Shown: positions 11,032-59,420 of the stretch, one piece after another
Position numbering within the stretch: the stretch's first letter is position 1
Layout: every line of letters begins with the position of its first letter
IMG/VR virus record: IMGVR_UViG_3300028589_000001
Direction: 5' to 3' (one strand)
Length of the DNA stretch: 64,000 nucleotides
DNA from: a virus
Notes under the pieces: model-generated
Database searches by the model: none
What the model saw: the letters and a program-made list of their open reading frames with translations, nothing else
What the model was told of the DNA's origin: nothing
Made by a program: the position numbers and the translations under genes

Positions 11032-11241
11032 CTGTCTCCTTGGTTTCCGGGGGCTTTTAGGTCGCCTAGTGGGCGACCGGCACTTCTGACAATAAAAAAA
11101 TACACTCCGCAGCCCGTAAGGGCCGCAGAGCGCGTAAGTGGCCGGAGGCCACGTCACTTCGTTTATTTGAAGAATCTTGTGTACATAAAGTGGAACACTG
11201 CGTCGATAAAGAACGCTAATACTGCAATAGCAAGCCATTCT

Positions 11242-20890: not shown

Positions 20891-21130
20891 TAGTTGTCAT
20901 GACATGTCCGTAGGACACAGCACATACAGTATAGGTAATGACAGGTAGGGCTGAAAAAGTAGGGGGCATATAGGTAGGGGTCAAGTGCACCACATCATGC
21001 ACTACCTAGCCCCAAATCCCCCTCACTATCCCTCACACGAGGGTTGTAAGTGATGGCAAGTGGTAGTACCTGTCTCAAATCAGTTGGGTAGGGTTCAATC
21101 TCCCCTTAGCTATCCCTACTGTCTCCCCGC

Positions 21131-21180
21131 TTTGATGTGTGCTCTTGATGTGTGCTTGTGATCTTGAAATGTGTGCTCTT
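21131..21180. repeat. short tandem direct repeats (GATGTGTGCTCTT-like units)
   Basis: gatgtgtgctctt gatgtgtgcttgt gatcttgaaat gtgtgctctt, read directly. Confidence 0.5.
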
Positions 21181-21222
21181 AAAAAAGGGCACCTCATCAC
21201 CCTTTGATAGCAGTGATGAGGC
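21178..21222 (-). terminator. intrinsic terminator (minus strand)
   Basis: 9-bp stem cctcatcac/gtgatgagg followed by T6 on the minus strand (A6 on plus). Confidence 0.5.
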
Positions 21223-21310
21223 GTTTGAACAGGTAGGGTGCAGCCATAGCTACGATACCTGCGGCCCACAGGGTTACACACAGTACAGCGAGCGAAGTTT
21301 CGAAGGTCAT
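21197..21310 (-). CDS. candidate 37-aa hydrophobic peptide
   Basis: MTFETSLAVLCVTLWAAGIVAMAAPYLFKRLITAIKG with GGAG 10 nt upstream; below the track length cutoff. Confidence 0.3.
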   Translation of the reverse strand: MTFETSLAVLCVTLWAAGIVAMAAPYLFKRLITAIKG

Positions 21311-21365
21311 GACATTAACTCCATGGTTTGGGGCCTACTTAGGTAGGTAGACCCCGTTGGGTTGG

Positions 21366-21692
21366 TTAGGCAGCTTTCTTGGCAGTGGCAGCGTCTTGTT
21401 TGTCCAGCTCTTTGGCAGCTTGGCGCATCTCGGCCATCATCTTCATGTCTTCCTGGTCGAAGGTGGACTTGAGGCGCTTGTACTCTTGTGCACGTACCAG
21501 TGCGGTCTTGTCGTTGAAGTGGGCAGCTTCACCCTCTACGAACGAAGCACCATGGTTTGCAGCGTTGGCCAGCTTCTCAGCAGCAGAGAACAGCGAGGCG
21601 AAAGCAGCGAACAGGTTACGGAACATAGCGAACATGTGGGTATCTCCAGAGTAGTGGACGGTATTGTCCAGCACACGCCCGTAGGGCAGCAT
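21366..21692 (-). CDS. hypothetical protein
   Basis: ORF; the start may be the internal Met at 21635. Confidence 0.4.
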   Translation of the reverse strand: MLPYGRVLDNTVHYSGDTHMFAMFRNLFAAFASLFSAAEKLANAANHGASFVEGEAAHFNDKTALVRAQEYKRLKSTFDQEDMKMMAEMRQAAKELDKQDAATAKKAA

Positions 21693-36994: not shown

Positions 36995-39900
36995 GTGGCT
37001 AATGAGTTCGACCTTACTAGCTTTTTGAACAGTCAGGCGGACGTTGAGGCCGGGGTTACCCCGGCTTTCGACCCTATAGACTATACTCCGCGTGCTGGGC
37101 TGGACATGATTGGTAGCCAGAAGGTCTTGGACCTGGACCTGGCCAACCAACGTGCCACCCGCAACGTTGAAAACGCACTGGTGGATAAACTGGGTCTCGA
37201 AGCTGACTCAGCGCTGGGTACTGTCGTCAACGACGGCGCTTCGCTGTTCTCTGGCTTGACCCGTGTAGCCGGCAACCTGGCTACCCTTCCAATCGACGCT
37301 ATTACCCAAATCGGCCAGGCCACTGTGCCTGACGATGTCATTTCTGCGTACACCCGCCGTATGACCGGTGAGGACATTCAAGAAGGCGATGACGCCCTGT
37401 TGGATGCCATTGCACCAGGCACTGAAGAGGGTGGTGTACCGCAAACTTACTTCCAGCGTATGCAAGGGCTGCAAGGCCTGCGCGACGTTTCGAAGAACAT
37501 CGCTGACACATTCGACTTCTCTTCGATTGTTAATACCGACCGCCGTGACGAACTTAGCGATGACATTCGCGAAAGCACGGCCGCTGGTGTGGCAAACATC
37601 CGCGAAGGCTATGAGTCTGGCGATCTGCTGCAAACCGGTAAAGGCGTGGCCCAAACCATTGGTAATGCCTTGGTTTCTGGTGTCACCAACCCTGGCGCCG
37701 TAGCTGAGTACGCTGCAGAGAACCTGCCGCAACTGGCTGCTGTTGCTGCCAACCCTGCGCTTGGTGTAGCCACCAACGCCGGCTATGGCTTCAATGAACT
37801 GCGCGAGGGTTACACCGACTACGCAGCTGAGCACAAAGGCGCACTGCCACCAGCCGCTGACCGCAACAAGATGGCCTTGTTTGCAGCATCTGCTGTTCTT
37901 GCCGAGCAAGTGGGCGATATGTCCATGCTCCGCGGGTTCACCAAGGCTGCCAAGACTTCTGGTGTCGGTTCGGCCGCTAAAGGCGTGGCCGGTGCTATGA
38001 CCAAGGAAGGTATCACTGAAGGGTACCAGACCTTCGCTGAAGGTCAGGCACACCTGGAAGACCGTTCTCTGGAAGAGATTGTGGAGGCTGCTACCATCGG
38101 TGCGATGGTCGGCGGTACCTACCACGGGGCAATGGAACTGGCCAACACTGGCCGTGCCCAAATGGAGGCAAGTGAACAACGTGTCGCCACTGAAGCCGCG
38201 TTTACCACTGCTGTCGAATCGGGCGACGTTACTGCCCTGTCTGACATGGAATCCCCGACCTATGACCCTGTCCGTGCAGTCCAAGCGCTGCAAGAGACAA
38301 TCAAAGGCGGCGATGAAGTGGCTGTACAGGAAGCCGTGGCCAAGTCTGATGAGATCCAGCAGGACCTGGCGAAAGAAGTGTCTCAGCTGGAGGTAATGCT
38401 CCAGACGTTCGAACCAGAAGCAGTAGCTGACGTAGCTGCCCGTCGTGAAGCCCTTGTGGCCAATCAAGGCGATGAGGCAGAGATTGCACGCTATGACGCT
38501 TTCTTGGAACGTGCTGCCGAGTTCACTCCTGAAACCATCCAAGGTATGCAGGAATACCACGCCGAGCTAAGTCAAAAGCTCGTCGATGTTCGTGCTGCCG
38601 CCGAGCAGTTCCAAGTAGCCGCCAGCCCGGAAGCTGATGAGGTTGCTGCGATTGCTCAACAAGCATCTGCCGGGGATACCAATCAGGCTGACCGCCTGTT
38701 GACCCTGACCATGATCAACCCCAACTCCGTTGACACTGCGGTGGCTTCGACCCTGGCTGAGTCGGAATCGCTGAGCCCTGAGCAACGTACAGCCTTCAAG
38801 GCCTTCCAGGCAGCGCAAGTAGCCGCTGATAACCTGCAGACCATTGAAGGTGTTCGCTCGGACATCACTACCGGTGGTGACGGGTTCAAAGGGGTACCCC
38901 AGTACCGTAACGCTATCCGCATGGCCCTGGCCCAAGGCAACGAAGCTGCTGCCCGCTCGCAACTCGAAGGTATCAGCAAGTTCGCCGCAAGCCGGCAGTC
39001 CAAAGCCGCTGCAATCACCGCTGCTTACGAGCAAGTGAAAGGCACCGGTAATTCGGTCTATTTGGCACCGGACGCGAAAGGTCAGTGGGCACCAGTACCT
39101 GCACAGGTAGATGGTGGCATTGTGGTGGACGGCCGCTCCTTCAAGCTCCGGGACGCTGTGAGTTCTGAAGCCGAGTACCTGGCCCGTGTTGCAGACGCTT
39201 TCACTGCACTGGTAAACGCTGCACCGAGCTATAAGCCTGCCCAAGCCACGGCAGCTGTAGTTCAGGCCCCTACTGTTGTGCAAGAAGCACCTCAAGCAGG
39301 GGTAGCGCCTGTTGTCGAAGCCCAGCCGCAGTCGGGCCAAGTCAACGTTGAACAAGTGGCCCCTGTAGTGGAGCCAGTCGCAGAACCGGTAGTCGAAACC
39401 GGTGAGCTGACTGCTATCCGCAATAAGCCACAAGAAGAAGTGACCGCGGACAATTATCGTCAGCTCAACTTGGTTGGTGCGCTGTTCGAACAGAATCCGG
39501 GCAAAGATACCGATGCGTCGCAAAAACCCCTGGTCAAAGTCGCTGACTTTGCTGCCAAGGTTAAGACCGACCCATCTGTGGTATATGAGTACCTGGACCA
39601 GCGCAAAGAGCTGTCCCAGCCGCAGAAAACAGCGGTGGCTCGTTTCTTCAAGTTCAACACTTGGGCGGACTCGAAAATCCGTGAACAGTTCAAGGTCAAG
39701 AACCAAGACTTCCGTTTTGTCGACCTTGCGCAATATCTGGTGAATGACGACGGTTCTCTGGACGAGAACGTCGTGACTGCTACTTCTTACAGCATGTTCA
39801 CCTGGGCCAACGAATCGGCCACACAAGTTACCAATACGGACGAGTCCATCAATGCCATCCTCATGCGCGATTTGGATGAGGACATTAGCAACACTGAGTA

Positions 39901-42900
39901 CGCCGTGCTGGGTCGGGTTGGTACCCGTGAAGCGTTCATTGCCGCACAACTGGGGCAACGTATCGTTCAAGCACTGGGCCTGCGCGCCAATGCCCAAGCA
40001 TCCGAGAGCGAAGTCGCTCGTCTGGAAAGCTCCCTGGGCCAGCGTGCTATCAACGCCATGGTTTCCCTCGGCATTGCCGAGCGTATTCAGGTGCCTGACA
40101 CTCAGCTGCAACCGCTGATGAAGACCGGCGCCACCCCTGATGCCAAACTGCAACACACCTTTATCCGTGTGAAGGCGGAGCAGGTTGACGGTAAGTGGGT
40201 TGCTGTACGCCCTGTCCAACTCGTGCGTGAGGCCTCTACTGGCTCGCAGTCTGTGCTGTCCAAGCTGTTTGGTACCGAAGAGTCCGGCGTAGAGCCGAGC
40301 TACACCCCGGTACCGTTCACGCAGCAGACTGCCAAACGGACAAACCAAGATGTACCTAAAGTACTGGCTTCGATCCTGGAAAAAGAAGGCAAAAAGGCAC
40401 ATGTAGTCCGTCAGGACATGTACCAGCTGTGGGGCAACCTGTCCCAGCAAGCCCTCTACGAAATCGCTGGTGTTGTCGATAGCACCGACACGCCAACCCA
40501 CGTTGAGAACCGTGCTTCCCGTGAGGCCAAGAATGATGGCCTGAAGGCGCAGGTAGACAACTTCAGCGTGTTCGTAACCAAGATGGTCAACGACCCAAGC
40601 ACTAATGGCCTGGAACAAGAACTGTTCTTCGGTCGCTCGGTGTGGAAGCCCCAGCGTGTAGGCCTGACCGCCAACGTGATCAACCCGCAGACCTCCAAGG
40701 TCCACCGGCACATGATCAAGATGGCTGGCTGGAACGCTACCATCGACATGACCGACAAAGCCCAGCTGGACAACTTCAAGCTGCGCGTGATCGAGGCATT
40801 CGATGAGAAGACCGAGTCCAAGGCTACTGATCTGGTACTGCAAGGCTACGACCAACTGGTCAACCGCCCGGGTGTGCAAGACGCTGTAACTGCGCTGGCT
40901 GAAATCCTGCGTGGTGAAGCCAATGACACACTGGCCAATGAACAGAAGATCCTGGCCGGCGTGCGTGCCACCGGTAACAACTTCCACGGTCTTGACGCAC
41001 TGGTAGCGCTGGCACACCAGCACAACGCCGTGCGCAACGGCGCAACTACCTTCGACACCGAACTGATGGGTGAAGTAGACGGTCTTACCAACGGCCCGAT
41101 GCTTTCGTTGCTGATGCTGGGTGCCAAAGGCTGGGACACCCTGAACCAAGGTGGTTTCTTCTCCCTGGAGCAGGAATTCACCCAGTTCAACGATTACAAG
41201 GGCCTGGGCAACCTGGACCTCTATGAAGGCACCATTGCCGAGACCCTGAAGCGCCTGGGCAGCTCGCAGGTACAGCTGATGGATGCACTGCAGCTGATCA
41301 CTGGCAAACTGCAGAATGACGACGGCCGTGTGACCTCTAAAGGCCGTAAGATCATCAAGCAGCCACTGACCGCCATGATGTTCGGTTCGAACACCAAGAC
41401 CGCGGTACAAGGCATGGCTGATGGTTTCATCGAGACTATCTACAGCTCGATGGAAGACTACGCTGGCAACCGTGACGAAGCCGGCATGAAACAGCTGCTG
41501 GGTGCTGTAAATACCCTGATGCGCAACAAGGCGCCGAAACTGAACGTGAACCTGGGTTACGACCTGGCACTGAACACCAAACTGACCGAGCAACAGAAGC
41601 GTGCCATCAAAGACACCTTCTATGATCTGATCGGCAAGCCGACCGAAGATGCGCTGGGTGATACCTACGCTACCTTCCTGGCGCGCCGTGACACCATTAA
41701 CCAGACTGCTCAACTGGCTTGGAGCCTGTACGACGCTGCTGAACGTGCTGTGACTGCCTATGTCATGGACAACAGCCCCGACGTACCGCGCCGTAAGCAA
41801 GACGGCGAAATGCGCCCACTGCGTGCACTGACCAAGGCCCAGCAGGCTGAAGTCAAGCGCATCCTGGGTGACATGGAACCTGTGCTGCAAACTGCACTGT
41901 CCAAGGCTAGCAATCAGCCGTCGGCCGGCATGCACATGTCGAAGTCGGTGCGCTCGCTGGATTCCAGCCAGCCATACCAGTCCGACATTACCTTCGGCGT
42001 GCCGGTGCCGACCTTTGACCTGTCTGGCAAGCCAGTACAAGTACGCCTGCGCAACGGTGAGTACCAGTTCCCCGGTTCGACCAAGAACAGCGGCCTGCGC
42101 CGTCAGAACGTCGACCCTGGTGTAATGCCGTTCATTACCAGCATCCACAGCTCCGACTCGATGATCGCCTCGTCGGTCTACGGCAAGATGGAGGCGTTGA
42201 ACGTGCACGACGCCCTGGGCGTGGACCTGAATGACGTTGCTACTGTTGGCCAGAACCTGAACCAGGCCACCTACCAGACCATGCTGGATTACAGCGCCCC
42301 GACCGCCATGGCCGAGATGTTGGACCACGTACTGCTAGGTATGGGCCGTCTGATGGCTGACCCTGAACTGGCTGCGCGCATTCAGCCACTGCTGGCCGAA
42401 GTCATGGCCCAGCGCGGCGACAAGAAGCGCGGCAACTTCACCGAGCAGCTGCTGTCGATCCGTCATGTGGCTGAACAGGCAGATACCGACAAGCTTAACT
42501 ACCTGGCTTCCATGCGGGCCGTTGGCCAGTACGCTACCGAAGGTGGTTCGTACATCGTGACCGACGCTGACCGCGCCGCTGCACGTGATGCCCTGGCCAA
42601 GGTTGGTTCGACGCTGTCCGAAGATGCTGTGTTGATCGCCGAGTCGCTGGACGAAGCCGCCAAGGCTGCACCTGCCGACCTACAACCGAGCACCTTCAAG
42701 CAGCTGTCGTCGCAGTCGGTGACCACTTTGCAGCCAGCCACCAGCTTGAATGCCTTGGACAAAGCCAAGGTGGAAAATCCTGCGGTGCGTGCTGCGCTGG
42801 AGCAGAACAAAACCCTACACGAAGCGCTGGGTACCGTGCCTGCTGCTGAAGCTGCCGATATCATCGAAGCTGTGAACAACGTCACCGCTACCGCCAACGT

Positions 42901-45900
42901 GTGGGGTGAGTTGGGCCGTCCAGTCGTTGATAGCGACCAGAACCTGGTAGACCTGCTGGCCGGTACCGAAATGACTGCTGGGCAGCTGGCCCAGGCTGTT
43001 GGCGAGTACGCACAGGACCCGTTCACCAAGAAGGTACTGGCCATGGCTTCGCGCTCGCTGCGTAACATGCCAGTGGTTTACGTGACCCCAACTACCCCGG
43101 TTGACGGTGTGCTGGGCGCTGGCGTGGACAAGTCCCGTGGCTGGTACGCCCAACAGGGCAATCGTGAAGCCATCTACGTGAAGTCCCCTGACTTTGTTGA
43201 GTCGGGTATCACTACTGAGATGCTGACCCACGAACTGGTACACGCTGCACTGGCCCAGCTGGTTGAGCAACATACTGGCACCAACACTCAGGTTGGTCGT
43301 GAAGTAGCGCGCCTGGAAGAACTGCGCACTAAGGCTGCTGAGTTCATCGGCAACAACGGTCCGCTGTCGGCCAAGTACGCCAATGCCACGGGCAATGTCC
43401 ATGAGTTGCTGGCTTGGGGCCTGACCAACCAAGACTTCCAAAGGGAAGTGTTGGCTGCCATCACCTTACCTGCGCGTGCCAAAGGCATGCTGTCGGGCCT
43501 GCGTGACTTCATCCAGTCGCTGACCGCCATGCTGTTTGGTGGCCGCGTGAACGAAGCGTCGGCTATGGGTCAGCTGGTTGCCAGCGGTGCGTACTTGTTC
43601 AAGGCTGCTGCTGAGACCAAGACCACCCGTGACAACCTGACCCTGCGCTACGAAGACGCGGTAAACCATGTCAACGCTATGACTGCGGCCCAGGTGTTCG
43701 ATGGATTGGCTGCCCTGTCTAAGCGCCAATCGCCGGCCGCTCACCAAGAGTTCATGCGCAGCATCATGGCTGACCTGGTCGAGCCACTGTACGGCCCATA
43801 CGGCGCATTCAAGGCGGACGCTGCGGCCAACAAAGCCAGCACCCCAATGGATGTGTACCTCAAGGCACTGGACACCGGTAAGCGTCCGTTTGGTAGCCAG
43901 GCCTTGACCCACGAATTCGTACTGAACGCCCAAGAGGCCTATGTACTGGAATCGGTGGAAGCCTCGGTACTGCACGCCATGGAAAACCCGGCCACCCTGT
44001 TCGTCCGTGATGCCCTGGGCAAGCTGTACGCCCAAGCCCGCGCCGAACTGAAGCCGCGTAACTTCCACAACGGTGACTGGAACACTGCGACGGATGCCGA
44101 GCAAAAGCTGGCTGAAGCCAAGTACGAATTCCTGTTCAAGGCGCGTCAAAACGCCGGTGGCAAGAATGAGTACCTGGCTCGCTTCGCTGCACTGGGCCTG
44201 GCTTCGAACGAAGTCAACAACGTGCTGAACTTCGCCACACCAGACGCCACTGTGCCGCTGAAGACCCTGTCGTGGGGTGGCGCAATCATGGAACTGTTCC
44301 GCCGAGCCATGACTGTACTGGCTTCGCTGCACACCAAGGTGCGTGCCGGTGACATGGCCAACACTGCGCTGGCCACCCTGCTAGATCAGCTGGTGGATAT
44401 TGAAGCCAAGCGCAAAGACCGCCTGGCCAAGCAGAAGGTCAATGGTCTGGATTCTGTGGAGATTGCACTGGGCGCCGTAGGCACCCGCGCACGCGAGACT
44501 ATCGATGCCCTGGGTCAGTCCAACTTCTTCCGACAGTCGTCTTCGCCTCTGGTGAAGTTCGTGGGCGTGGCTGCGTCGACCCTGGCCGCTGACCGTGTGA
44601 CCCAGGTCCTGGACCACATGACCAAGGTGCGTGACGCTGCGCTGAAGTCGAAGCACGGCACCATCATGGGTATCGTCAGCGAGATGCGCGGCTCCCATGA
44701 CGGCAACATCGTGGCCACTGCTCTCTTCAAGGAAGCCAAGAAGAACGAGCAGGAGCGTAAGCACCACATTGAGTACACCGTTGCCCAAGTCAACGAAGCA
44801 TTCGCTGATGGCGGCGCCAACCTGGAGCCACAACATCGTGCTGCGCTTACTCGTGTATTCCTGCGTACCAACGCTGCTGCCATTGCTGATGTACTGGGTA
44901 CTGCTGGCCTGAAAGAGTTGATGGAAGACCCGGCCAAGATGGCAGCACACCGCCGTGACTTGGAAGCTCAGGTAATCGCCGCGGAGCCTGAAGCGCTGTA
45001 CATGATCAGCCAGACCAAGGACCTGGCCCATCACAAAGTTGTAGGTGGTTCGACCAGCTCTAAGCTGATGCTGAACACGCTGAACATTGCCAACTTGACT
45101 GGTACTGCCAAAGTAGGCCAAGCCCAGCAAGCGGCGGTTGTTAAGCCGCTTTTAGACCAGCTTCTCGCAGTCTACGCACTGGAATACACCGGTACTGCTG
45201 ACAAGAAGCTGGCCATGGAAGTGTTCCGCACCGAATCGAATCGTGGTGCGCAGAACGGGGTAGATTTCATCCTCAAGCTGCATTCTGGCTTGCAGAAGAA
45301 GTCCGGGGAGCTGCTGTTCAAGGGTCAAGAGACTATGCAGGCATCTGCGTATGTCCCTGAGATTACTGACACCAATATCGAAGTGATGCTGGTGGACAAG
45401 GCTGACCTGGGCAAGTACGAGCGCGCTGGCTACGTCCTGGGCACCAACCTGCAGCATGACCCGGCGTCTGGTGTACGTGACAACCGTGTCCTGGTCACTC
45501 GCCGCGGTTCGGGGCAAGCTGGTCTGTTGACCGGTGCGATGAGCTACACCGGTATGGGCCGCAAGGGTTCGAGCCCGTCTACTGAAGCGCTGAACGTGCT
45601 GCAAGGCACTCAGGTTACTTCGGCTGCCCATAAGGCGCAGATCAACGCTGCCAAAGCGGCTGTTGAGCATGAACTGTTTGCACGCTCCCTGGCTTACGAT
45701 CCTCGCAAAGCCAAGCGCGGTAATATGGTTCCAGTGCTGGCACCTAACGGCCAAATCGCTGACTGGCGCTACATGATGTCCGAAACCAGCCGCGATGCGC
45801 TGCTGGACCGTGACAACAGTGTTGAACAGGTCTTGGGTGTGCTGTCGGGTCAGATCGTGGACAAAGTGTCCTCGGCTGCACAGAACGCTGACGTTGTCCG

Positions 45901-47116
45901 CTCTCTGCGCGACCAGTACGACGCTGACTTCAAGAACCGTCCGGCCAGCTACTTGGTAGTGGGTAAAGACAGCACCGATCCAGAACTGCGTGAGCTTTAC
46001 ACCCTGTTGCCTGAATCCACCAAGCGTGAAATCAAGCGCGTGTGGAAAGACGACAACATGCGTATCCCAGCCGACCAGTTGAACCTGATCATGGGCTATC
46101 GCAAGTACAGCCTCACTCAACCGTTTACTGCGCTGCCGGGTGACCGTAACTTTGCAGAGAAACTGTTTGTGCAGGTTGCTGAGCACTTCCTGGGTGATAA
46201 AGCCGCACTGCGTATCGGCAAGGCCGAAGACGTGATGCAAGAGCTGGTAAAAGAGACCAAGGACATTCTGGTGGTGAAGAACATCGTTACCCTGGTGGGC
46301 AACATGATTTCCAACCTTACTCTGTTGGCTTGGGAAGGTGTACCGGTGCGCAAGGCTATCGCCGCACACGCAATCGGCCTGAAGGCTGCCGTGGACTACC
46401 GCCGCGACAACAAACGCCTGCTGCAACTACAACAGGCTGTAGAAATTGGTTATGCCGACTCCAGCGTGGCTGAAGGCGAGATTGTTGAGCTGCGTGACCG
46501 TCTGGCGCGTAACCCGCTGAAACCACTCATTGATGCTGGCTTGATGCCGACCATCGTTGAGGACGTTGAAGCTGACGACTCGCAGTACAGCTACAAGTCG
46601 CGACTGCAAACCAAGGTGCAGAAGTACACCAATAAGGTGCCTGCTTGGATGCGTGAAGTCGGTAAACAGGTCTACATGACCCACGATACCGGCATCTACA
46701 AGTTCCTCAGCCAGGCTACCCAGCTGTCTGACCTTGTAGCGCGATATGCCATGTACGAACACACCATGACCCGTGCTCGCGACCCGCTGAGTCAGGCTGA
46801 TGCGTTGAAACAGGCTGAAGAGTCCTTTGTGAACTACGACCTGCCGTCGCACCGGAACATCCAGTTCCTGAACGACATGGGCTTGGTTATGTTCACCAAG
46901 TACTACATGCGTATCCAGAAGACCATCATGCGCTTGGTTCGTGAGAAGCCTGCACGTGGTTTGGCTCTGGTTGCAGCTAACCATGCTTGGTCTGGCTTGG
47001 ACTCCATTACTGATTCGTACTGGATGAACAAGCTGGGTAATAACCCACTGCAGGATGGTGCGTTGGGCTACTTCGGTGCTCTGGACGAACTGCCGGCCTT
47101 TAGCCTGCTGAAGTGA
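36995..47116 (+). CDS. virion-encapsidated RNA polymerase (giant vRNAP, 3373 aa)
   Basis: Size and position are diagnostic for N4-like phages; KIIKQPLTAMMFGSN resembles T7 motif B (KRSVMTLAYGS) and ALNVHDALGV resembles motif C (HDSFG). Confidence 0.9.
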   Translation: MANEFDLTSFLNSQADVEAGVTPAFDPIDYTPRAGLDMIGSQKVLDLDLANQRATRNVENALVDKLGLEADSALGTVVNDGASLFSGLTRVAGNLATLPIDAITQIGQATVPDDVISAYTRRMTGEDIQEGDDALLDAIAPGTEEGGVPQTYFQRMQGLQGLRDVSKNIADTFDFSSIVNTDRRDELSDDIRESTAAGVANIREGYESGDLLQTGKGVAQTIGNALVSGVTNPGAVAEYAAENLPQLAAVAANPALGVATNAGYGFNELREGYTDYAAEHKGALPPAADRNKMALFAASAVLAEQVGDMSMLRGFTKAAKTSGVGSAAKGVAGAMTKEGITEGYQTFAEGQAHLEDRSLEEIVEAATIGAMVGGTYHGAMELANTGRAQMEASEQRVATEAAFTTAVESGDVTALSDMESPTYDPVRAVQALQETIKGGDEVAVQEAVAKSDEIQQDLAKEVSQLEVMLQTFEPEAVADVAARREALVANQGDEAEIARYDAFLERAAEFTPETIQGMQEYHAELSQKLVDVRAAAEQFQVAASPEADEVAAIAQQASAGDTNQADRLLTLTMINPNSVDTAVASTLAESESLSPEQRTAFKAFQAAQVAADNLQTIEGVRSDITTGGDGFKGVPQYRNAIRMALAQGNEAAARSQLEGISKFAASRQSKAAAITAAYEQVKGTGNSVYLAPDAKGQWAPVPAQVDGGIVVDGRSFKLRDAVSSEAEYLARVADAFTALVNAAPSYKPAQATAAVVQAPTVVQEAPQAGVAPVVEAQPQSGQVNVEQVAPVVEPVAEPVVETGELTAIRNKPQEEVTADNYRQLNLVGALFEQNPGKDTDASQKPLVKVADFAAKVKTDPSVVYEYLDQRKELSQPQKTAVARFFKFNTWADSKIREQFKVKNQDFRFVDLAQYLVNDDGSLDENVVTATSYSMFTWANESATQVTNTDESINAILMRDLDEDISNTEYAVLGRVGTREAFIAAQLGQRIVQALGLRANAQASESEVARLESSLGQRAINAMVSLGIAERIQVPDTQLQPLMKTGATPDAKLQHTFIRVKAEQVDGKWVAVRPVQLVREASTGSQSVLSKLFGTEESGVEPSYTPVPFTQQTAKRTNQDVPKVLASILEKEGKKAHVVRQDMYQLWGNLSQQALYEIAGVVDSTDTPTHVENRASREAKNDGLKAQVDNFSVFVTKMVNDPSTNGLEQELFFGRSVWKPQRVGLTANVINPQTSKVHRHMIKMAGWNATIDMTDKAQLDNFKLRVIEAFDEKTESKATDLVLQGYDQLVNRPGVQDAVTALAEILRGEANDTLANEQKILAGVRATGNNFHGLDALVALAHQHNAVRNGATTFDTELMGEVDGLTNGPMLSLLMLGAKGWDTLNQGGFFSLEQEFTQFNDYKGLGNLDLYEGTIAETLKRLGSSQVQLMDALQLITGKLQNDDGRVTSKGRKIIKQPLTAMMFGSNTKTAVQGMADGFIETIYSSMEDYAGNRDEAGMKQLLGAVNTLMRNKAPKLNVNLGYDLALNTKLTEQQKRAIKDTFYDLIGKPTEDALGDTYATFLARRDTINQTAQLAWSLYDAAERAVTAYVMDNSPDVPRRKQDGEMRPLRALTKAQQAEVKRILGDMEPVLQTALSKASNQPSAGMHMSKSVRSLDSSQPYQSDITFGVPVPTFDLSGKPVQVRLRNGEYQFPGSTKNSGLRRQNVDPGVMPFITSIHSSDSMIASSVYGKMEALNVHDALGVDLNDVATVGQNLNQATYQTMLDYSAPTAMAEMLDHVLLGMGRLMADPELAARIQPLLAEVMAQRGDKKRGNFTEQLLSIRHVAEQADTDKLNYLASMRAVGQYATEGGSYIVTDADRAAARDALAKVGSTLSEDAVLIAESLDEAAKAAPADLQPSTFKQLSSQSVTTLQPATSLNALDKAKVENPAVRAALEQNKTLHEALGTVPAAEAADIIEAVNNVTATANVWGELGRPVVDSDQNLVDLLAGTEMTAGQLAQAVGEYAQDPFTKKVLAMASRSLRNMPVVYVTPTTPVDGVLGAGVDKSRGWYAQQGNREAIYVKSPDFVESGITTEMLTHELVHAALAQLVEQHTGTNTQVGREVARLEELRTKAAEFIGNNGPLSAKYANATGNVHELLAWGLTNQDFQREVLAAITLPARAKGMLSGLRDFIQSLTAMLFGGRVNEASAMGQLVASGAYLFKAAAETKTTRDNLTLRYEDAVNHVNAMTAAQVFDGLAALSKRQSPAAHQEFMRSIMADLVEPLYGPYGAFKADAAANKASTPMDVYLKALDTGKRPFGSQALTHEFVLNAQEAYVLESVEASVLHAMENPATLFVRDALGKLYAQARAELKPRNFHNGDWNTATDAEQKLAEAKYEFLFKARQNAGGKNEYLARFAALGLASNEVNNVLNFATPDATVPLKTLSWGGAIMELFRRAMTVLASLHTKVRAGDMANTALATLLDQLVDIEAKRKDRLAKQKVNGLDSVEIALGAVGTRARETIDALGQSNFFRQSSSPLVKFVGVAASTLAADRVTQVLDHMTKVRDAALKSKHGTIMGIVSEMRGSHDGNIVATALFKEAKKNEQERKHHIEYTVAQVNEAFADGGANLEPQHRAALTRVFLRTNAAAIADVLGTAGLKELMEDPAKMAAHRRDLEAQVIAAEPEALYMISQTKDLAHHKVVGGSTSSKLMLNTLNIANLTGTAKVGQAQQAAVVKPLLDQLLAVYALEYTGTADKKLAMEVFRTESNRGAQNGVDFILKLHSGLQKKSGELLFKGQETMQASAYVPEITDTNIEVMLVDKADLGKYERAGYVLGTNLQHDPASGVRDNRVLVTRRGSGQAGLLTGAMSYTGMGRKGSSPSTEALNVLQGTQVTSAAHKAQINAAKAAVEHELFARSLAYDPRKAKRGNMVPVLAPNGQIADWRYMMSETSRDALLDRDNSVEQVLGVLSGQIVDKVSSAAQNADVVRSLRDQYDADFKNRPASYLVVGKDSTDPELRELYTLLPESTKREIKRVWKDDNMRIPADQLNLIMGYRKYSLTQPFTALPGDRNFAEKLFVQVAEHFLGDKAALRIGKAEDVMQELVKETKDILVVKNIVTLVGNMISNLTLLAWEGVPVRKAIAAHAIGLKAAVDYRRDNKRLLQLQQAVEIGYADSSVAEGEIVELRDRLARNPLKPLIDAGLMPTIVEDVEADDSQYSYKSRLQTKVQKYTNKVPAWMREVGKQVYMTHDTGIYKFLSQATQLSDLVARYAMYEHTMTRARDPLSQADALKQAEESFVNYDLPSHRNIQFLNDMGLVMFTKYYMRIQKTIMRLVREKPARGLALVAANHAWSGLDSITDSYWMNKLGNNPLQDGALGYFGALDELPAFSLLK

Positions 47117-47249
47117 GCTAGGAGCGGGGTGGTGGACTCGAACCACCGCCTTAAAGCCTACGAACCGATGTAGGCATAAGGTCTGGCCAAGGGAACGTCT
47201 TCGGGCATATATACCCTAGAGGCCCTTTCCCTGCCCCGCTTGTAACAAG

Positions 47250-47282
47250 TTGAAAGCCCCTAACGGGGCTTTCGGCGTTTCT
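47250..47282. terminator. bidirectional intrinsic terminator between convergent genes
   Basis: gAAAGCCCCtaacGGGGCTTTc hairpin with T-rich flanks on both strands. Confidence 0.55.
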
Positions 47283-47475
47283 GAAGCGGCTGAATGATCA
47301 GTTCTTCAATGCAGAACCACAGGAACACGCCTATCAGGCCAACTACGCCCACTATGGCGATAATCACGCCAATTATTCGCAGTAGGAATCCAAAGGCGAT
47401 AAACATCGCGATTATGGACAGCCCCGCTGCGAAGAAGACGCAGATGCCCAAGAAGGTCTTGAGCAGCGCCCGCAT
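47260..47475 (-). CDS. small membrane protein (2 TM, basic C-terminus; holin-like topology)
   Basis: Two hydrophobic helices and a QKRRKPR tail. Confidence 0.45.
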   Translation of the reverse strand: MRALLKTFLGICVFFAAGLSIIAMFIAFGFLLRIIGVIIAIVGVVGLIGVFLWFCIEELIIQPLQKRRKPR

Positions 47476-47921
47476 TACAGGGTGACGATCGCATAACCGG
47501 CGGCCGCCAGCAGTTCCTTGGCGCGGGCCACGAATACGTGGTCAGCACCTGGTTTGGTGATGATCTTGCCTAGGCTTTCGGCACGCTCTTTGCTGATGGC
47601 GTCTGCCGGGGTCACCGGAGCTTCCGCTTGCACCAGCACATGCACTGCCGGGCATTCGCCGCAGTGGCACGGTGGATATTCAGCACGCAGCGCTTCGGTG
47701 ATCAGTTCCAGCTTGGTGGGTTCACGCTCGTTCGCGTATTCCTCGCCGCATTCCTGATGTTCGTTAGCCCCGACTTCACCTTGCACCCGGTCACCCGGGC
47801 GGGCCAGGTCTACGATACTGGCCAAGATTGCATTGGTGGCCGCGTCGGCGTTGGTCACGTTACGCAGGTTGTTGGCCGCGTGGGCCAGCGTTGCAATCAG
47901 GTTCGCTTTTTCGTTATTCAT
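47475..47921 (-). CDS. hypothetical protein (148 aa)
   Basis: ORF on the operon strand. Confidence 0.5.
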   Translation of the reverse strand: MNNEKANLIATLAHAANNLRNVTNADAATNAILASIVDLARPGDRVQGEVGANEHQECGEEYANEREPTKLELITEALRAEYPPCHCGECPAVHVLVQAEAPVTPADAISKERAESLGKIITKPGADHVFVARAKELLAAAGYAIVTL

Positions 47922-48063
47922 GTAACGTACACTCCTAGTTATTCAGGTCAAATCAACTCTATGGTTTGTGCACCGCCAAGCGCTCAATTATTGGGACCAC
48001 GAGTTGACTTGCCAGAGTAACCAGTAAACTGGGGCACTCCTGCCGACTTACATCTGTTTCCAA

Positions 48064-48390
48064 ACACTTTCATTACACAGATTCACATGCAAATCACACA
48101 GATCCGCTATTAATGTGAAAGAGCAGCTTTCGCAGCGACTTGTATCTCTCTGTTGTACTTCGCAAACCAGTTTCAACTACGGCGAAACCGGTTAACACGC
48201 TTTCGCGCGACATATTGCTTGCTTGATTCTGAAAAGGCTAACGCACTAGGCATTAGTTTCTCAAAGAACACTTTCGTGCAACTCACATCTATTGTGGCCG
48301 TCAGCCGGCCATAGACTTTCGTCATACTTGTTTCATTGCCCCTATTCCTAATCTGTCCCTCTGGCGTCTTCTTGCTTACGACAGAAAGTT
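48064..48390. repeat. cluster of short dispersed repeats (R-CTTTCG-Y)
   Basis: Direct copies at about 48064, 48126, 48199, 48269 and 48314, plus inverted copies GTGAAAG at 48113 and AGAAAGT at 48384. Confidence 0.5.
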
Positions 48391-48549
48391 AACAATACAG
48401 AGGATTAATATTAGGTTTAGGTAATGCAGTTATTCAGGCTGCATTGGACTGGAGACGATCCACCCACTGATTGGGGGTATTGCACTACCCCTTGCAGGCG
48501 ACCGGCCCGTCAAAGCTGGGCGTGTTGACGCACGCTTGTCATCTCCAGT

Positions 48550-48590
48550 CCAATACAACCTTTCGGTGTATTGGGTTTTTAGTTGTTGTC
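48550..48590 (+). terminator. orphan plus-strand intrinsic terminator (possible sRNA 3' end)
   Basis: CCAATACAacctttcggTGTATTGG followed by GTTTTTAGTTGTTG; no plus-strand protein gene nearby. Confidence 0.45.
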
Positions 48591-48832
48591 TCAACTTACT
48601 CGCCGTTGGCTTATAGTCGAACTATTGCGAGTCTCCCGACTACCATGTGGCGTGATCAAAGGCGGTGATTAGATCGTTATCCCTGACGGGGTCTCAGTGC
48701 ACGCTTCGAGCGTCCACGTGCTAATGGCCGTTGGGTATTTCCCTTTCACATGGTTTCCAGGTTTTTATGTACCTGGCGGACATACGCCCTTTAAGTGCAG
48801 GCGGTGAACTTCCCCTGTATCCGGGGACAGGA

Positions 48833-49675
48833 TTACTTCAACGGCAGCAGCGTATTCGCGCCACCGTCAGTGACCAGTGTGGTCGGCACATCACCCTTCC
48901 AGGTTTCGACCTTCTTCAGTTCGATGTACTGGGGGTTGCGGCGCATGGCTTCACCGATGGTTTCGATGGCCTGGGCCTGGCCTTCAGCACGCAGGATAGC
49001 GGCGGCTTTGTCACCTTCAGCTTCAGCACGTTGCTTGGCTGCGATGGCTACGGCCTGCGCTTCTTCGTTCTTCAGACGGTCGGTGATCTGGTTGGCTTCC
49101 ACCTTCTTGTTCAGCTGTTCGCGTACCGTATCCGGCAGCTCCAGCGAATCCAGCAGGTAGAGGTTGGTCAGGATCAGGCCGTGCTCGGCAAAGTGGGCAT
49201 GTACACGCTCGCGCACCCGCGTCAGGAATTCTTCCTGGCCGGCGCCGTAGATCGCGTCCACTTTCACTTTACTGGCTTCATTGGCGAAGGCCGTCTTCAG
49301 CACTTGGACCATGTTGGTTTCGATGATGCCGTCCAAGTCCTTGCGGTACTTGAGGAACAGCTTCGGTGCTGCGTCTTGCTCCGCGTAGGCCGTCACACCG
49401 ATGGTGGCGGTCAGGCGGGCGCCGTCGGCGTCACTGAACGAAACCTTGCCCAGGTCTTTATTCTGGTCGAAGGTCTTGAAGGTGTACAGGTTCTCGGTGA
49501 ACCCGACGATATTCCAGCCCGATTTGGCCGGCTTCATCTGGACGCCCTTGTCGCTACCTACGGTAGAAACCAGTACGCCAACCTCACCTGGCGACACTTT
49601 CTGTGGCATGCAGCCGGTTGCAGCGATGCACGCGAGGCCGACGGCCAGTGCACCAAGAATGTTACGAACGCGCAT
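48833..49675 (-). CDS. SPFH/band-7 (HflC/HflK/stomatin-like) lipoprotein
   Basis: N-terminal signal with a lipobox-like ...IAATGC; HflK/C-like core and Ala/Glu-rich coiled-coil AIAAKQRAEAEGDKAAAILRAEGQAQAIE. Confidence 0.75.
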   Translation of the reverse strand: MRVRNILGALAVGLACIAATGCMPQKVSPGEVGVLVSTVGSDKGVQMKPAKSGWNIVGFTENLYTFKTFDQNKDLGKVSFSDADGARLTATIGVTAYAEQDAAPKLFLKYRKDLDGIIETNMVQVLKTAFANEASKVKVDAIYGAGQEEFLTRVRERVHAHFAEHGLILTNLYLLDSLELPDTVREQLNKKVEANQITDRLKNEEAQAVAIAAKQRAEAEGDKAAAILRAEGQAQAIETIGEAMRRNPQYIELKKVETWKGDVPTTLVTDGGANTLLPLK

Positions 49676-58909: not shown

Positions 58910-59159
58910 GGGAAAATCCTTAGAAAATGATTGATCAAAAAATGAGCAGTAAACGGCCCCATTATATAAAGGGGTCTACTCCGTCCCCTTCGCTTAAAGC
59001 GCGAAAGCTACCGGAGGTAGCCCCCAGGCTCCGCACTCCTCCCCTACTTCTAGGGGAGGTCGAGCACGGGCCGGCGCGCCCCTAGCTGACCGGCGCAGCC
59101 GGTGCTGCGACGGGGATGCGCAAGGCACGGGCGATGACCGAGCCGTAATAGACGCACAA

Positions 59160-59190: not shown

Positions 59191-59420
59191 GTTAGAAGTG
59201 TCAGCAGGGTCAAGGCTTAATGGGCGATTGGTGTGTGTAACCCGCTGACAGGGATGAATATAGGATTGTGGTGTTCATATGTCAACAGGACGCTCCAGTC
59301 TACGCCGTACACCGCTGTCGGGCAGCACCGCTGCGCGGTCAGCCCTCGGCGCTTACCGGCTTGACTGTTCGCTGGTGTAATTGGGGGTTAGAATGCTGTC
59401 TAACACCCAATAGGAGGCCA

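What the first reader, a model, noticed from the sequence alone, without database searches (positions are those of the whole stretch)
48060..48600. Intergenic region with R-CTTTCG-Y repeats and an orphan plus-strand intrinsic terminator (candidate sRNA, origin or promoter array)
Five direct copies of (A/C/G)CTTTCG(C/T) occur at 44-73-bp spacing (48064, 48126, 48199, 48269, 48314), with two inverted copies (48113, 48384), resembling iterons or a promoter array. Further on, a textbook intrinsic terminator lies on the plus strand (CCAATACA-acctttcgg-TGTATTGG then GTTTTTAGTTGTTG, 48550-48590), although every neighbouring protein gene is on the minus strand. Stable hairpins precede it (aatgcag...ctgcatt and ggggta...tacccc, about 48425-48520). 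This layout would fit a short plus-strand noncoding RNA antisense to the surrounding minus-strand transcription unit, or a replication origin.
Basis: seen in the sequence. Interest (0 to 1): 0.6.

Follow-up and report, generated by a model that had tools for sequence, protein, structure and literature searches.

The report
Structured noncoding RNA island in phage
The "repeats", hairpins and "orphan terminator" all belong to a conserved array of folded noncoding RNA modules, most likely read on the same strand as the neighbouring genes, in an N4-like Pseudomonas phage at the spot where related phages carry tRNA genes and where phage LUZ7 makes abundant small RNAs.

Summary
The window comes from an N4-like (Schitoviridae) Pseudomonas-type phage. 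The finding lies in a 910-bp gene-free gap (47922-48832) near the end of the minus-strand replication-gene block.

The sequence features are mostly real, but the interpretation has the wrong strand.
- **Relatives.** Six related phage contigs carry homologous noncoding DNA. In places it is better conserved than the adjacent protein gene.
- **W1 (48435-48565).** This module has a 22-bp closing helix and four inner helices. Fourteen of 47 pairs show compensatory double changes, and 32 G·U cells stand against 1 A·C, so the RNA is minus-sense.
- **The "terminator" and hairpins.** The plus-strand "terminator" hairpin overlaps W1's closing helix as an alternative 5' hairpin.
- **The CTTTCG "repeats".** On the minus strand they are GAAA tetraloops capping short, covarying stems, each preceded by an AAGUC-like pentamer.

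There is no match to Rfam, tRNA, N4-type promoter hairpins, iterons or conserved small ORFs. Processing at the long helices, possibly by RNase III, is inferred only. A co-existing plus-strand transcript is not excluded.

These are new RNA families of a known kind, of moderate interest.

The parts
48435..48565 (-). Module W1: structured RNA of about 130 nt. It has a 22-bp closing helix P1 (48436-48457 with 48540-48561), inner helices P2, P3 and P4/P5, and conserved single-stranded motifs (CCAGCUUUGACGGGCCGG, UGCAA, CCCCCAAUCAGU).
   Evidence: An inverted repeat was found without reference to strand. Homologues lie at L047 5357-5487, L049 4614-4743 and L051 4606-4738, with a weak one at L002 4431-4574. 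In the RNAalifold structure, 14/47 pairs have changes on both sides and 96.8% of cells are paired. None of 500 shuffles reaches this, and slid controls give 1-2 such pairs. G·U 32 versus A·C 1. The minus strand folds with z -5.0 and the plus strand with z -2.75.
48550..48580 (+). On the minus strand it reads CCAAUACACC-GAAA-GG(U)UGUAUUGG, a 5' flanking hairpin whose 3' half is also the outer 5' arm of P1 (alternative pairing).
   Evidence: dG is -12.1 on the plus strand and -12.9 on the minus strand. Minus-strand RNA with full P1 folds at -73.1 kcal/mol, against -68.4 with the flanking hairpins enforced. The hairpin is kept in L047 with a changed apex and loop (CAG-UUUCGG-CUG) and an interrupted T-tract (TTTGTTT). 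L051 has an overlapping hairpin with no adjacent T-run. L049 and L002 have none.
48424..48446 (-). 3' flanking hairpin AAUGCAG-CCUGAAUAA-CUGCAUU. Its 5' arm overlaps the outer 3' arm of P1.
   Evidence: It is conserved with a compensated stem and a nearly constant loop: GAUGUGG-CCUGAAUAA-CCACAUC in L050 and AAUGCAG-CUUGAAUAC-CUGCAUU in L054. In L050 it again overlaps the 3' arm of a different 28-bp long stem.
48341..48421 (-). Domain C: long irregular hairpin that includes the AT-rich stretch and the invariant ACUUUCUGUCGUAAGCAAGA.
   Evidence: The stretch 48340-48530 has no substitution against L047, whose genome-wide identity to the window is about 88-90%. The consensus fold has several U·G pairs. 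The one-sided changes seen are G·U to Watson-Crick switches that are valid only on the minus strand.
48127..48321 (-). Four short hairpins capped by GAAA tetraloops. The CGAAAG hexamers lie at 48316-48321, 48271-48276, 48200-48205 and 48127-48132, and each is preceded by an AAGUC-like pentamer.
   Evidence: Hairpin context. Stems covary in relatives while GAAA is kept: GAC/GUC becomes GCC/GGC, and CGCGC/GCGUG becomes GUGG/CCAC in L054 and GUGC/GCAC in L050. G·U extensions exist only on the minus strand.
48033..48044 (-). GGCA-GGAG-UGCC hairpin preceded by AAGUC, the fifth unit of the same type.
   Evidence: L054 has GGUA-GGAG-UACC, a compensated stem.
47950..48010 (-). Module E: hairpin directly upstream of the ribosome-binding site of the 148-aa gene. 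The helix AAGUCAACUC/GAGUUGAUUU encloses the invariant GGUCCCAWUAAUUGAGCGCUUGGCGGUGCACAA. A sigma-70-like hexamer pair (48015 to 47987) lies inside it.
   Evidence: The helix sequences differ but stay complementary: GAUCUAACUC/GAGUUAGAUC in L054 and GAACUAUCUG/CAGAUAGUUC in L050 (read directly from the alignment). The promoter-like match is and is tentative.
48644..48776 (-). Module B (48644-48757; closing helix CCAUGUG/CACAUGG, conserved GAAAGGGAAAUAC and AUCUAAUCACCGCCUUUGAU) and the preceding hairpin CCAGGU-ACAUAAAA-ACCUGG (48757-48776).
   Evidence: It is homologous to L002 7185-7297 at 71% identity. Ten of 37 predicted pairs have changes on both sides across window, L047 and L002. The preceding hairpin has the counterpart CUGGCAGAC-GCAUAAGA-GUCUGCCA in L002.
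50368..50461 (-). Module W2, in the second noncoding gap (49968-50552): 20-bp perfect closing helix with a 54-nt interior. It belongs to the same long-stem class as W1.
   Evidence: Eleven of 38 pairs have changes on both sides against L002 7392-7508. The bin is 98% identical to L047.
50071..50216 (-). Block A: conserved noncoding block in the second gap. In relatives it lies upstream of a tRNA gene.
   Evidence: It is 68-73% identical to L002 6679-6831, L049 6070-6246 and L050 6248-6368. In L002, tRNA-Arg(UCU) follows immediately.

Best explanation
The 910-bp gap between the SPFH gene and the 148-aa gene is not an origin or a promoter array. It is a string of independently folding noncoding RNA modules on the minus strand, the strand of the flanking genes.

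**Order of modules (5' to 3' on the minus strand)**
- Module B.
- W1: a 22-bp closing helix around a conserved four-helix core.
- A conserved 3' hairpin.
- A long G·U-rich hairpin (domain C).
- A conserved hairpin just before the ribosome-binding site of the 148-aa gene.

**Shown**
- The modules are conserved.
- The helices covary.
- The sense strand is the minus strand.
- There is no coding signal.

**Inferred**
- The modules are made as part of the rightward middle or late transcripts that cover the SPFH gene.
- The two-turn closing helices of W1, W2 and their relatives are cleavage sites for a double-strand-specific RNase, as RNase III excises rRNAs or cuts T7 early mRNA. Cleavage would release about 100-130-nt stable RNAs.
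- After the cut, the overlapping flanking hairpins refold to cap the ends of the neighbouring mRNAs.

The biological role of the released RNAs is unknown. In sister phages the same slot holds tRNA genes.
For: **Context.** The phage is N4-like: virion RNA polymerase, RNAPII subunits, primase, SSB and portal were identified.

**No known RNA or coding content.** No tRNA and no Rfam family was found. No small ORF is conserved or shows third-position bias. The 50-aa ORF acquires a stop in L047, and the 34-aa plus-strand ORF is broken in L049 and L051.

**Conservation.** Against L047, 48530-47925 is 87-100% identical, with about 190 nt unchanged. The adjacent 148-aa gene is 53-79% identical.

**W1.** Fourteen of 47 pairs have double changes, with 0/500 shuffles reaching this and slid controls giving 1-2. 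G·U 32 versus A·C 1.

**Other modules.** W2, B, the GAAA hairpins and domain C also covary or change only through G·U.

**Consensus folds of 47922-48540.** The minus strand gives -195 kcal/mol with about 11 consistent and 3 truly broken one-sided changes. The plus strand gives -175 kcal/mol with about 7 consistent and 9 broken.

**Long stems detected without reference to strand.** Across 15 independent elements in the gene-strand orientation, G·U 22 versus A·C 9, p=0.03.

**Relatives.** tRNA genes sit in the homologous gaps on the gene strand in L002, L049, L050, L051, L025, L026 and L032.

**Literature.** In LUZ7 the syntenic orf69-orf70 gap yields abundant small noncoding RNAs of under 250 nt, one apparently made by processing. 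Watson-strand middle transcripts cover the whole LUZ7 genome (PMC9163698).
Against: - No RNA data exist for this phage, so transcription of either strand is assumed.
- Only 3-4 independent sequences are available per module. The structures were predicted on the same alignments on which the pairs were counted.
- The strand-neutral G·U test is only modestly significant, and one long stem (L025 8530-8629) favours the other strand.
- RNase III cleavage is pure analogy.
- The plus-strand hairpin plus T-run is a credible terminator, and it is kept, with an interrupted T-tract, in L047.
- Near-identity of 48340-48530 with L047 could partly reflect recent recombination rather than constraint.
- The strand of the LUZ7 small RNAs is not given in the text available.
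Confidence: 0.68

Rival explanations
1. One reading: a short plus-strand noncoding RNA, antisense to the surrounding unit. It would start upstream of about 48425, or at the CTTTCG hairpins, and end at the intrinsic terminator at 48550-48590. It could co-exist with the minus-sense modules, for example as an antisense regulator, or the terminator could stop late read-through from the polymerase gene.
For: - The hairpin has dG -12.1 kcal/mol and is followed by T5.
- Hairpin and U-rich tail are retained in L047 despite apex changes.
- A weak -35/-10-like pair, TTAACA-17-TAGGTT, lies at 48389-48417 (read; below the scan threshold).
- LUZ7 has late small RNAs with their own start site and terminators in the syntenic gap, and antisense termination sites are common there.
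Against: - Helices carry many G·U pairs that would be C·A mismatches in plus-sense RNA.
- The terminator is absent in L049 and L002, and L051 has no T-run adjacent to its hairpin.
- No promoter passed the scan on the plus strand.
- No N4-type triloop promoter hairpin lies on the plus strand in 47900-48600.
- The putative promoter lies inside a conserved minus-sense hairpin.
- Terminator-like motifs are common by chance.
Confidence: 0.15
2. DNA-level hairpin elements. The c(GAAA)g hairpins would be extruded single-strand DNA hairpins on the minus (template) strand. They would work as N4-type promoters for the virion RNA polymerase or RNAPII and drive plus-sense transcription, possibly priming replication as in a T7-like origin (promoters followed by an AT-rich region).
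For: - From my own knowledge: N4-type promoters are template-strand c(GNA)g hairpins with covarying stems, and d(GCGAAAGC), present exactly at 48126-48133 and 48199-48206, is a very stable DNA mini-hairpin.
- LUZ7 middle promoters are reported to have 3-4-nt loops.
- The conserved flank AAGUC (GACTT on the plus strand) would place a G about 12 nt from the loop centre in some copies.
- An AT-rich stretch follows on the plus strand.
Against: - The phage's own candidate promoter hairpins are 4-7-bp stems with TNC triloops on the RNA-like strand, as in LUZ7 upstream of drc. The GAAA hairpins have 4-nt loops and only 2-3 consecutive Watson-Crick pairs here, and 3-4 in L054.
- G·T pairs in the stems would hinder cruciform extrusion.
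- The AAGUC+GAAA unit occurs nowhere upstream of early or middle genes in the 64-kb window.
- Only one of the four is kept in L050.
- The AT-rich segment is a conserved G·U-rich RNA hairpin.
- There are no direct repeats longer than about 8 nt.
- Neighbouring modules are clearly RNA-level structures in the same orientation.
Confidence: 0.07
3. A decaying remnant of a tRNA and small-RNA island. The hairpins would be leftover or generic mRNA-stabilising and processing structures in a long 3'/5' UTR, with no discrete functional RNA products.
For: - The window lineage has lost the tRNA-Arg and about 475 nt that relatives keep between block A and the next conserved segment.
- Module content and order differ between relatives. 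W1 lies upstream of the SPFH gene in L049, L051 and L002 but downstream of it here.
- Some relatives carry aberrant tRNA-like genes.
Against: - Decay does not give 95-100% identity next to a 53-79% identical gene.
- Decay does not give 14 compensated pairs in one 130-nt module.
- Decay does not give invariant single-stranded motifs across 65-76% identical relatives.
Confidence: 0.08

Closest known systems
LUZ7 small-RNA locus (sRNA1-3, orf69-orf70 intergenic region; Putzeys et al. 2022, PMC9163698)
   Same: The position is syntenic: after the SSB block and before the last small genes that converge on the virion RNA polymerase gene. Both regions are gene-free and rich in long stems. Both belong to N4-like Pseudomonas phages. 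In LUZ7 this gap gives abundant noncoding RNAs of under 250 nt, one probably made by processing.
   Different: There is no detectable sequence or covariance-model similarity: R1 finds nothing in the LUZ7 locus L044. The LUZ7 gap is about 400 bp against 910 bp here. The strand and structure of the LUZ7 RNAs are not given in the text I could read. LUZ7 has no tRNAs.
Phage tRNA gene islands with co-encoded stable RNAs (for example the T4 tRNA cluster with stable RNAs C and D; own knowledge)
   Same: In relatives the homologous gaps hold tRNA genes on the same strand, directly beside long-stem elements. Small structured RNAs of unknown function share the island.
   Different: The window itself has no tRNA. 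The modules are not tRNA-like by ARAGORN or Rfam.
RNase III processing helices (rRNA precursor stems; T7 early-mRNA R sites; own knowledge)
   Same: Closing helices of 20-28 bp, about two helical turns, bracket a folded RNA. Overlapping flanking hairpins could cap the cut ends.
   Different: Cleavage was not tested. The helices are nearly perfect, whereas T7 sites have internal loops. The shared AUYGG/CCRAU segment in many arms has no known counterpart.
Rho-independent (intrinsic) terminator
   Same: On the plus strand there is a GC-containing hairpin (dG -12.1 kcal/mol) followed at once by a T5 run.
   Different: It is not at the end of any plus-strand gene. It overlaps a conserved minus-sense helix. 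It is conserved only among the nearest relatives.
N4/LUZ7-type DNA hairpin promoters
   Same: Both are short hairpins with a conserved purine-rich loop on one strand, covarying stems and a conserved flank.
   Different: The loop has 4 nt rather than 3, the stems are shorter, and the flank differs. The polarity is opposite to the surrounding genes. The motif is absent from the early and middle regulatory regions.
Large ornate phage-associated RNAs (GOLLD, ROOL; own knowledge)
   Same: Both are large gene-free structured regions in phage genomes next to tRNA genes, with many GNRA-capped helices.
   Different: There is no Rfam match to those families at gathering or relaxed thresholds. The modules here are shuffled between relatives, which argues for several small RNAs rather than one large fold.

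Membership tests
Intrinsic (Rho-independent) terminator, plus strand | Stable GC-containing hairpin followed immediately by a U-tract on the transcribed strand | tested here: met
   48550-48574 hairpin, dG -12.1 kcal/mol, then T5 at 48576-48580
Intrinsic (Rho-independent) terminator, plus strand | Lies at the 3' end of a transcription unit on that strand, and is conserved as hairpin plus U-tract in relatives | tested here: not met
   No plus-strand gene or promoter lies upstream. The T-tract is interrupted in L047, not adjacent in L051, and the element is absent in L049 and L002.
Intrinsic (Rho-independent) terminator, plus strand | Transcript 3' ends map to the U-tract | not testable with these tools
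   Needs 3'-end RNA mapping
Iteron-type replication origin | Several direct repeats of about 17-22 bp with regular spacing, next to an AT-rich unwinding element | tested here: not met
   Only a 6-nt core recurs, with spacing of 73, 71, 45 and 244 nt. There is no longer direct-repeat family in 47000-51200. The AT-rich stretch is part of a conserved RNA hairpin.
N4-type hairpin promoter (virion RNA polymerase / RNAPII) | Stem of 4-7 bp with a 3-nt c(GNA)g loop on the template strand, upstream of a transcribed gene | tested here: not met
   The loops here are 4 nt (GAAA) and the stems have 2-3 consecutive Watson-Crick pairs. The phage's triloop candidates lie elsewhere (59021, 56629, 20917, 11152, 8905) and none is on the plus strand in 47900-48600. 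LUZ7 reference hairpins.
N4-type hairpin promoter (virion RNA polymerase / RNAPII) | Initiation by the phage polymerase about 11-15 nt downstream of the loop centre | not testable with these tools
   Needs in vitro transcription or 5'-end mapping
tRNA / tRNA-like gene | Cloverleaf detected by ARAGORN or the Rfam tRNA model | tested here: not met
   There are zero tRNAs in the window and no tRNA-clan hit at E<=10 in 47900-48900 or E<=5 in 49900-50600. Relatives do have tRNAs here.
Any curated Rfam family (including GOLLD, ROOL, Y RNA, riboswitches, ribozymes) | Covariance-model score at or near the gathering threshold | tested here: not met
   No hit at gathering threshold in 64 kb. Only chance-level hits of 14-19 bits appear at relaxed thresholds.
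Conserved structured noncoding RNA (generic criteria) | Homologues in several genomes, with helices supported by compensatory changes beyond controls | tested here: met
   W1: 14/47 pairs, 0/500 shuffles, slid controls 1-2. W2: 11/38. B: 10/37. GAAA hairpins.
Conserved structured noncoding RNA (generic criteria) | No protein-coding signal | tested here: met
   ORFs are broken in relatives and there is no third-position bias
Conserved structured noncoding RNA (generic criteria) | Detected as a transcript of the predicted strand | not testable with these tools
   Only indirect support is available: the LUZ7 transcriptome of the syntenic region
RNase III substrate | Roughly 20 bp or more of near-continuous double-stranded RNA | tested here: met
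   P1 has 22 bp (3 of them G·U) and W2 has 20 perfect pairs. Relatives have 16-28-bp arms.
RNase III substrate | Staggered cleavage in vivo or in vitro | not testable with these tools
   Needs an rnc mutant host or purified enzyme

The most novel reading that the evidence does not exclude
The gap, together with its partner gap at 49968-50552, may encode a previously undescribed system of 'framed' phage RNAs. Variable folded cores of about 55-160 nt would sit inside a shared two-turn closing helix that carries a common AUYGG/CCRAU segment. These units would be exchanged between related phages and would be interchangeable with tRNA genes. They could be a cassette-like arsenal of small RNAs, for example decoys or antidotes against host defences that target tRNAs or RNAs. 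Alternatively, the AAGUC+GAAA hairpin array and neighbouring domains could form one large tetraloop-stapled RNA of the GOLLD/ROOL kind.
Probability: 0.15. Interest if true: 0.8.

Novelty: new member of a known kind. Interest (0 to 1): 0.5.

Why it matters
N4-like phages are models for unusual transcription and are used in Pseudomonas phage therapy. The only transcriptome of a relative, LUZ7, flagged an unexplained burst of small RNAs at exactly this genomic position.

This analysis supplies concrete RNA modules that can be tested. Each has coordinates, a secondary structure and a predicted sense strand. None is in Rfam, and in places they are more conserved than the adjacent 148-aa gene. In sister phages the same slot holds tRNA genes.

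That makes the function of phage small RNAs in this family directly approachable through Northern blots, an RNase III-deficient host, deletions and structure probing.

It also shows that an apparent "orphan terminator" and "iterons" can be by-products of RNA structure on the opposite strand.

Tried and rejected
- **Phage database BLAST.** Nucleotide searches of the region, both near and distant mode, gave no match.
- **Flanking 148-aa protein.** It has no match in phage records, PHROGs or IMG/VR.
- **17-mer scans of IMG/VR from module B.** Apart from the true relative, the hits were unrelated: one family of AT-rich phage contigs shared a 21-25-nt stretch that looks like coding sequence, and the rest were isolated matches.
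- **Degenerate pattern from the W1 core.** No match in IMG/VR or in 185,579 species genomes, so there is no evidence that W1 copies a host RNA.
- **Metagenome scan with the polymerase C-terminus.** It added only a short contig that ends before the region.
- **tRNA and Rfam searches.** Negative.
- **Small ORFs.** All ORFs of 20 aa or more on both strands were rejected. This includes the 50-aa minus-strand ORF and the 34-aa plus-strand ORF that sits neatly before the 'terminator'.
- **Hexamer enrichment.** It was not significant after multiple testing.
- **N4-type promoter reading of the CTTTCG hairpins.** I considered it seriously and compared it with LUZ7 drc promoters. It is disfavoured.
- **MITE-like mobile element reading of the long inverted repeats.** Rejected because the arms covary rather than keep their sequence, and because G·U pairs outnumber A·C.
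- **Sigma-70-like promoter at 48015-47987.** Downgraded because it lies inside a covarying RNA helix.
- **My relaxed terminator scan.** It was too permissive to be informative.
Full report
**Context**

The window is most of the genome of an N4-like (Schitoviridae) phage of the Pseudomonas type.
- A 3373-aa plus-strand ORF (36995-47116) is the virion RNA polymerase.
- The portal, major capsid, two RNAPII subunits, primase, exonuclease, Sak4, SSB and RuvC genes were recognised.
- The nearest described phages are Littlefix, 98PfluR60PP, phCDa, the Litunavirus group and Meara, at 66-69% protein identity.

The finding lies in a 910-bp stretch without a credible gene (47922-48832). It sits near the end of the minus-strand replication block. 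An SPFH/Band-7 gene (48833-49675) lies on one side. A 148-aa gene and a 71-aa gene lie on the other, and they converge on the polymerase gene. A second gap of 585 bp (49968-50552) lies just upstream of the SPFH operon.

**Checking the observation**

- Four exact CTTTCG copies exist at 48127, 48200, 48271 and 48316. A fifth sits in the loop of the 'terminator' at 48560.
- The copy claimed at 48064 is CTTTCA. The 'inverted' copies are 5/6 matches.
- The hexamer is not enriched in the window: 27 copies against 27.8 expected.
- The local cluster is not significant after correcting for all hexamers: p about 1.7e-4 uncorrected, rank 14.
- The context is not random. Four of the 5 copies cap a hairpin of at least 3 Watson-Crick pairs, against 2 of 22 copies elsewhere.
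- The terminator-like hairpin (48550-48574, -12.1 kcal/mol) with a T5 run, and the other two hairpins, are as described.

**Relatives**

DNA searches of phage records found nothing. Protein-anchored look-ups found contigs with the same gene order.

| Locus | Relationship to the window |
|---|---|
| L046 | 99% identical |
| L047 | about 88-90% nucleotide identity genome-wide |
| L049, L050, L051, L054 | SPFH protein 65-70% identical |
| L002/L024 | IMG/VR contig, SPFH protein 65% identical |

In L002, L049, L050 and L051 the gap after the SPFH gene is 1.5-2 kb and holds a tRNA or tRNA-like gene on the gene strand; L054's gap is about 1 kb and was not scanned for tRNAs. More distant relatives (L025, Littlefix, L032) also carry tRNAs in this convergent zone, next to long inverted repeats. 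The window's own lineage has no tRNA.

**Conservation**

Against L047, the stretch 48530-47925 is 87-100% identical, and about 190 nt show no change at all. The adjacent 148-aa gene is 53-79% identical, and the noncoding stretch 48530-48830 is 62-78% identical.

No ORF in the gap is conserved or shows a coding substitution pattern. The 50-aa minus-strand ORF has a stop in L047. The 34-aa plus-strand ORF that precedes the 'terminator' is broken in L049 and L051.

**Module W1 and the strand question**

The 'terminator' and both upstream hairpins sit in or at the edges of one element. A 23-nt inverted repeat with 80 nt between the arms (48436-48458 and 48539-48561) was found without reference to strand.

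Homologues at 70-76% identity exist in L049 and L051, with a weaker one in L002. In those phages the element lies upstream of the SPFH gene rather than downstream.

The consensus fold has a 22-bp closing helix P1 and inner helices P2, P3 and P4/P5.
- 96.8% of cells are paired.
- Fourteen of 47 pairs carry changes on both sides. Shuffles give 6.6±1.8 (0/500 reach 14), and slid controls give 1-2.
- Read on the window's minus strand, the helices hold 32 G·U cells and 1 A·C cell.
- Within P1 alone, the three independent sequences have 8 G·U pairs and no A·C (read).
- The minus strand folds better than the plus strand: z -5.0 against -2.75 for 48400-48600, and -4.55 against -2.80 for 48425-48835.

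I therefore read W1 as a minus-sense RNA.

The 'terminator' hairpin reads CCAAUACACC-GAAA-GG(U)UGUAUUGG on the minus strand. Its 3' half is the outer 5' arm of P1. The aatgcag/ctgcatt hairpin overlaps the outer 3' arm in the same way. The two conformations differ by under 5 kcal/mol.

The 3' hairpin is conserved with a compensated stem and a nearly constant loop in L050 and L054. In L050 it again overlaps the arm of a different 28-bp stem. The 5' hairpin with an adjacent T-tract exists only in the window, L046 and, interrupted, L047.

**The CTTTCG copies**

On the minus strand they read C-GAAA-G: GAAA tetraloops on stems of 3-5 pairs. Two stems are extended by G·U pairs that would be C·A on the plus strand.

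L054 is only 65% identical over 48448-47932, yet it has four GAAA hairpins and one GGAG hairpin in corresponding places. Each is preceded by AAGUC (an AAGUC-like pentamer in the window), and the stems are different but complementary.
- GAC/GUC becomes GCC/GGC.
- CGCGC/GCGUG becomes GUGG/CCAC. Here the closing pair flips, so GAAA is kept but the hexamer CGAAAG is not.
- L050 has GUGC/GCAC at the same position.

The conserved feature is therefore the tetraloop hairpin, not a linear DNA word.

Between W1 and these hairpins lies a long hairpin (48341-48421). It contains the AT-rich stretch, has several U·G pairs, and changes only through G·U switches. Just before the 148-aa gene, another helix (47950-48010) covaries in L054 and L050 around an invariant apex.

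Module B (48644-48757) and module W2 (50368-50461) covary with L002.

Consensus folds of 47922-48540 favour the minus strand. It gives -195 kcal/mol with about 11 consistent and 3 truly broken one-sided changes. The plus strand gives -175 kcal/mol with about 7 consistent and 9 broken.

A strand-neutral count over 15 independent long stems gives G·U 22 against A·C 9, p=0.03.

**Rivals**

*A plus-sense small RNA.* It cannot be excluded, and it could co-exist with the minus-sense modules. Against it:
- No promoter-like site passed the scan on the plus strand here.
- There is no N4-type triloop hairpin on the plus strand in 47900-48600.
- The terminator is not conserved beyond the closest relatives.

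*DNA hairpin promoters.* I took this reading seriously. N4-type promoters are also hairpins with conserved purine loops on the template strand, and d(GCGAAAGC) is a very stable DNA hairpin (own knowledge). Several points count against it:
- LUZ7's drc promoters are 5-bp stems with TAC triloops.
- This phage's own candidates are GC-rich stems with TCC or TAC triloops at 59021, 56629, 20917, 11152 and 8905.
- The GAAA hairpins have 4-nt loops, shorter stems and G·T pairs.
- They occur nowhere in the early or middle control regions of the window.

*An iteron origin.* Nothing supports it: there are no long direct repeats, and the AT-rich segment is RNA structure.

**Mechanism**

Shown: conserved, covarying, non-coding modules, with the minus strand as the favoured sense strand.

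Inferred:
- They are transcribed with the SPFH operon or by read-through. In LUZ7, Watson-strand middle transcripts cover the whole genome.
- The two-turn closing helices are cut by a double-strand-specific RNase and release stable small RNAs.
- The flanking hairpins then cap the neighbouring mRNA ends.

The long stems of W1, W2 and many of the relatives' elements share an AUYGG/CCRAU segment. This hints at a common recognition feature. The function of the cores is unknown.

**Comparison and novelty**

The syntenic orf69-orf70 gap of LUZ7 produces abundant late small RNAs, sRNA1-3, one apparently by processing (PMC9163698). PEV2's annotation notes a 'very strongly transcriptionally expressed' 162-nt ORF in the same zone, on the gene strand. 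There is no sequence or model similarity to LUZ7, and no Rfam family matches.

I file this as new RNA families of a known kind, phage small structured RNAs in a tRNA island. It is not a terminator, promoter array or origin.

Noticed in passing
window 20780-21380 (minus strand): A gene-poor stretch with five CCCTACC / GGTAGGG copies (the third most clustered hexamer family in the window), tandem CACACATCAAGAGCACACATCAAAG repeats, a strong minus-strand terminator (about 21189) and a LUZ7-type promoter hairpin TGTCC-TAC-GGACA (about 20917). It is probably an early-promoter region or lies near a genome end.
   Followed up: partly
window 59007-59021, 56615-56629, 11138-11152, 8891-8905, 58406-58420, 57456-57470: GC-rich 6-bp hairpins with a GGA loop on the plus (template) strand: 6 of 47 triloop hairpins, where about 0.7 would be expected. 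Several lie just upstream of minus-strand gene starts. They are candidate N4-type (P2-like) promoters for the replication genes.
   Followed up: partly
window 49970-50015 (minus strand): A sigma-70-like site (TTAACC-16-AATAAT) upstream of the 101-aa/SPFH operon. It lies in a 45-nt segment that is about 90% identical in L049, L050 and L051, although the surrounding sequence is far more diverged. In L050 the segment abuts the 3' end of the tRNA, and in L049 and L051 it lies about 75-100 nt downstream of it.
   Followed up: partly
window 48151-48170 (+) and 50142-50161 (-): A 20-nt sequence from conserved block A (TGTTGTATGTCTCAAACCAG) recurs with 3 mismatches in inverted orientation inside the finding region. 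Zero matches are expected by chance. Its meaning is unknown.
   Followed up: partly
L049 6836-6910; L051 6586-6653; L048 5891-6079: ARAGORN calls odd tRNA-like genes in relatives: an undetermined anticodon, an anticodon at unusual positions, and 82-84-nt tRNA-Phe(AAA) and tRNA-Ile(AAU). They may be degenerate or non-canonical tRNAs in the same island.
   Followed up: no
W1 homologues: window 48435-48565 versus L049 4614-4743, L051 4606-4738, L002 4431-4574: The same RNA module lies downstream of the SPFH gene in the window and L047 but upstream of it in three relatives. L050 has a different long-stem element at each position. The modules appear to be shuffled or exchanged between phages.
   Followed up: partly
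window 59268-60704 (+): A tail-fibre-like ORF (PHROG 496, E 1e-106) on the plus strand borders the minus-strand replication block. This arrangement differs from N4 and LUZ7.
   Followed up: no
window 47252-47273: A perfect 9-bp hairpin GAAAGCCCC-TAAC-GGGGCTTTC at the stop of the 71-aa gene, in the convergent zone with the polymerase gene. Neither strand has a clear U-tract. It may be the bidirectional stop signal of the two converging units.
   Followed up: no
window 48076-48107 (minus strand): Two copies of AUCUGUG (GGAUCUGUGUGAUUU and GAAUCUGUGUAAUG) form a conserved hairpin. The word resembles the T7 RNA polymerase class II pause/termination signal ATCTGTT (own knowledge).
   Followed up: no
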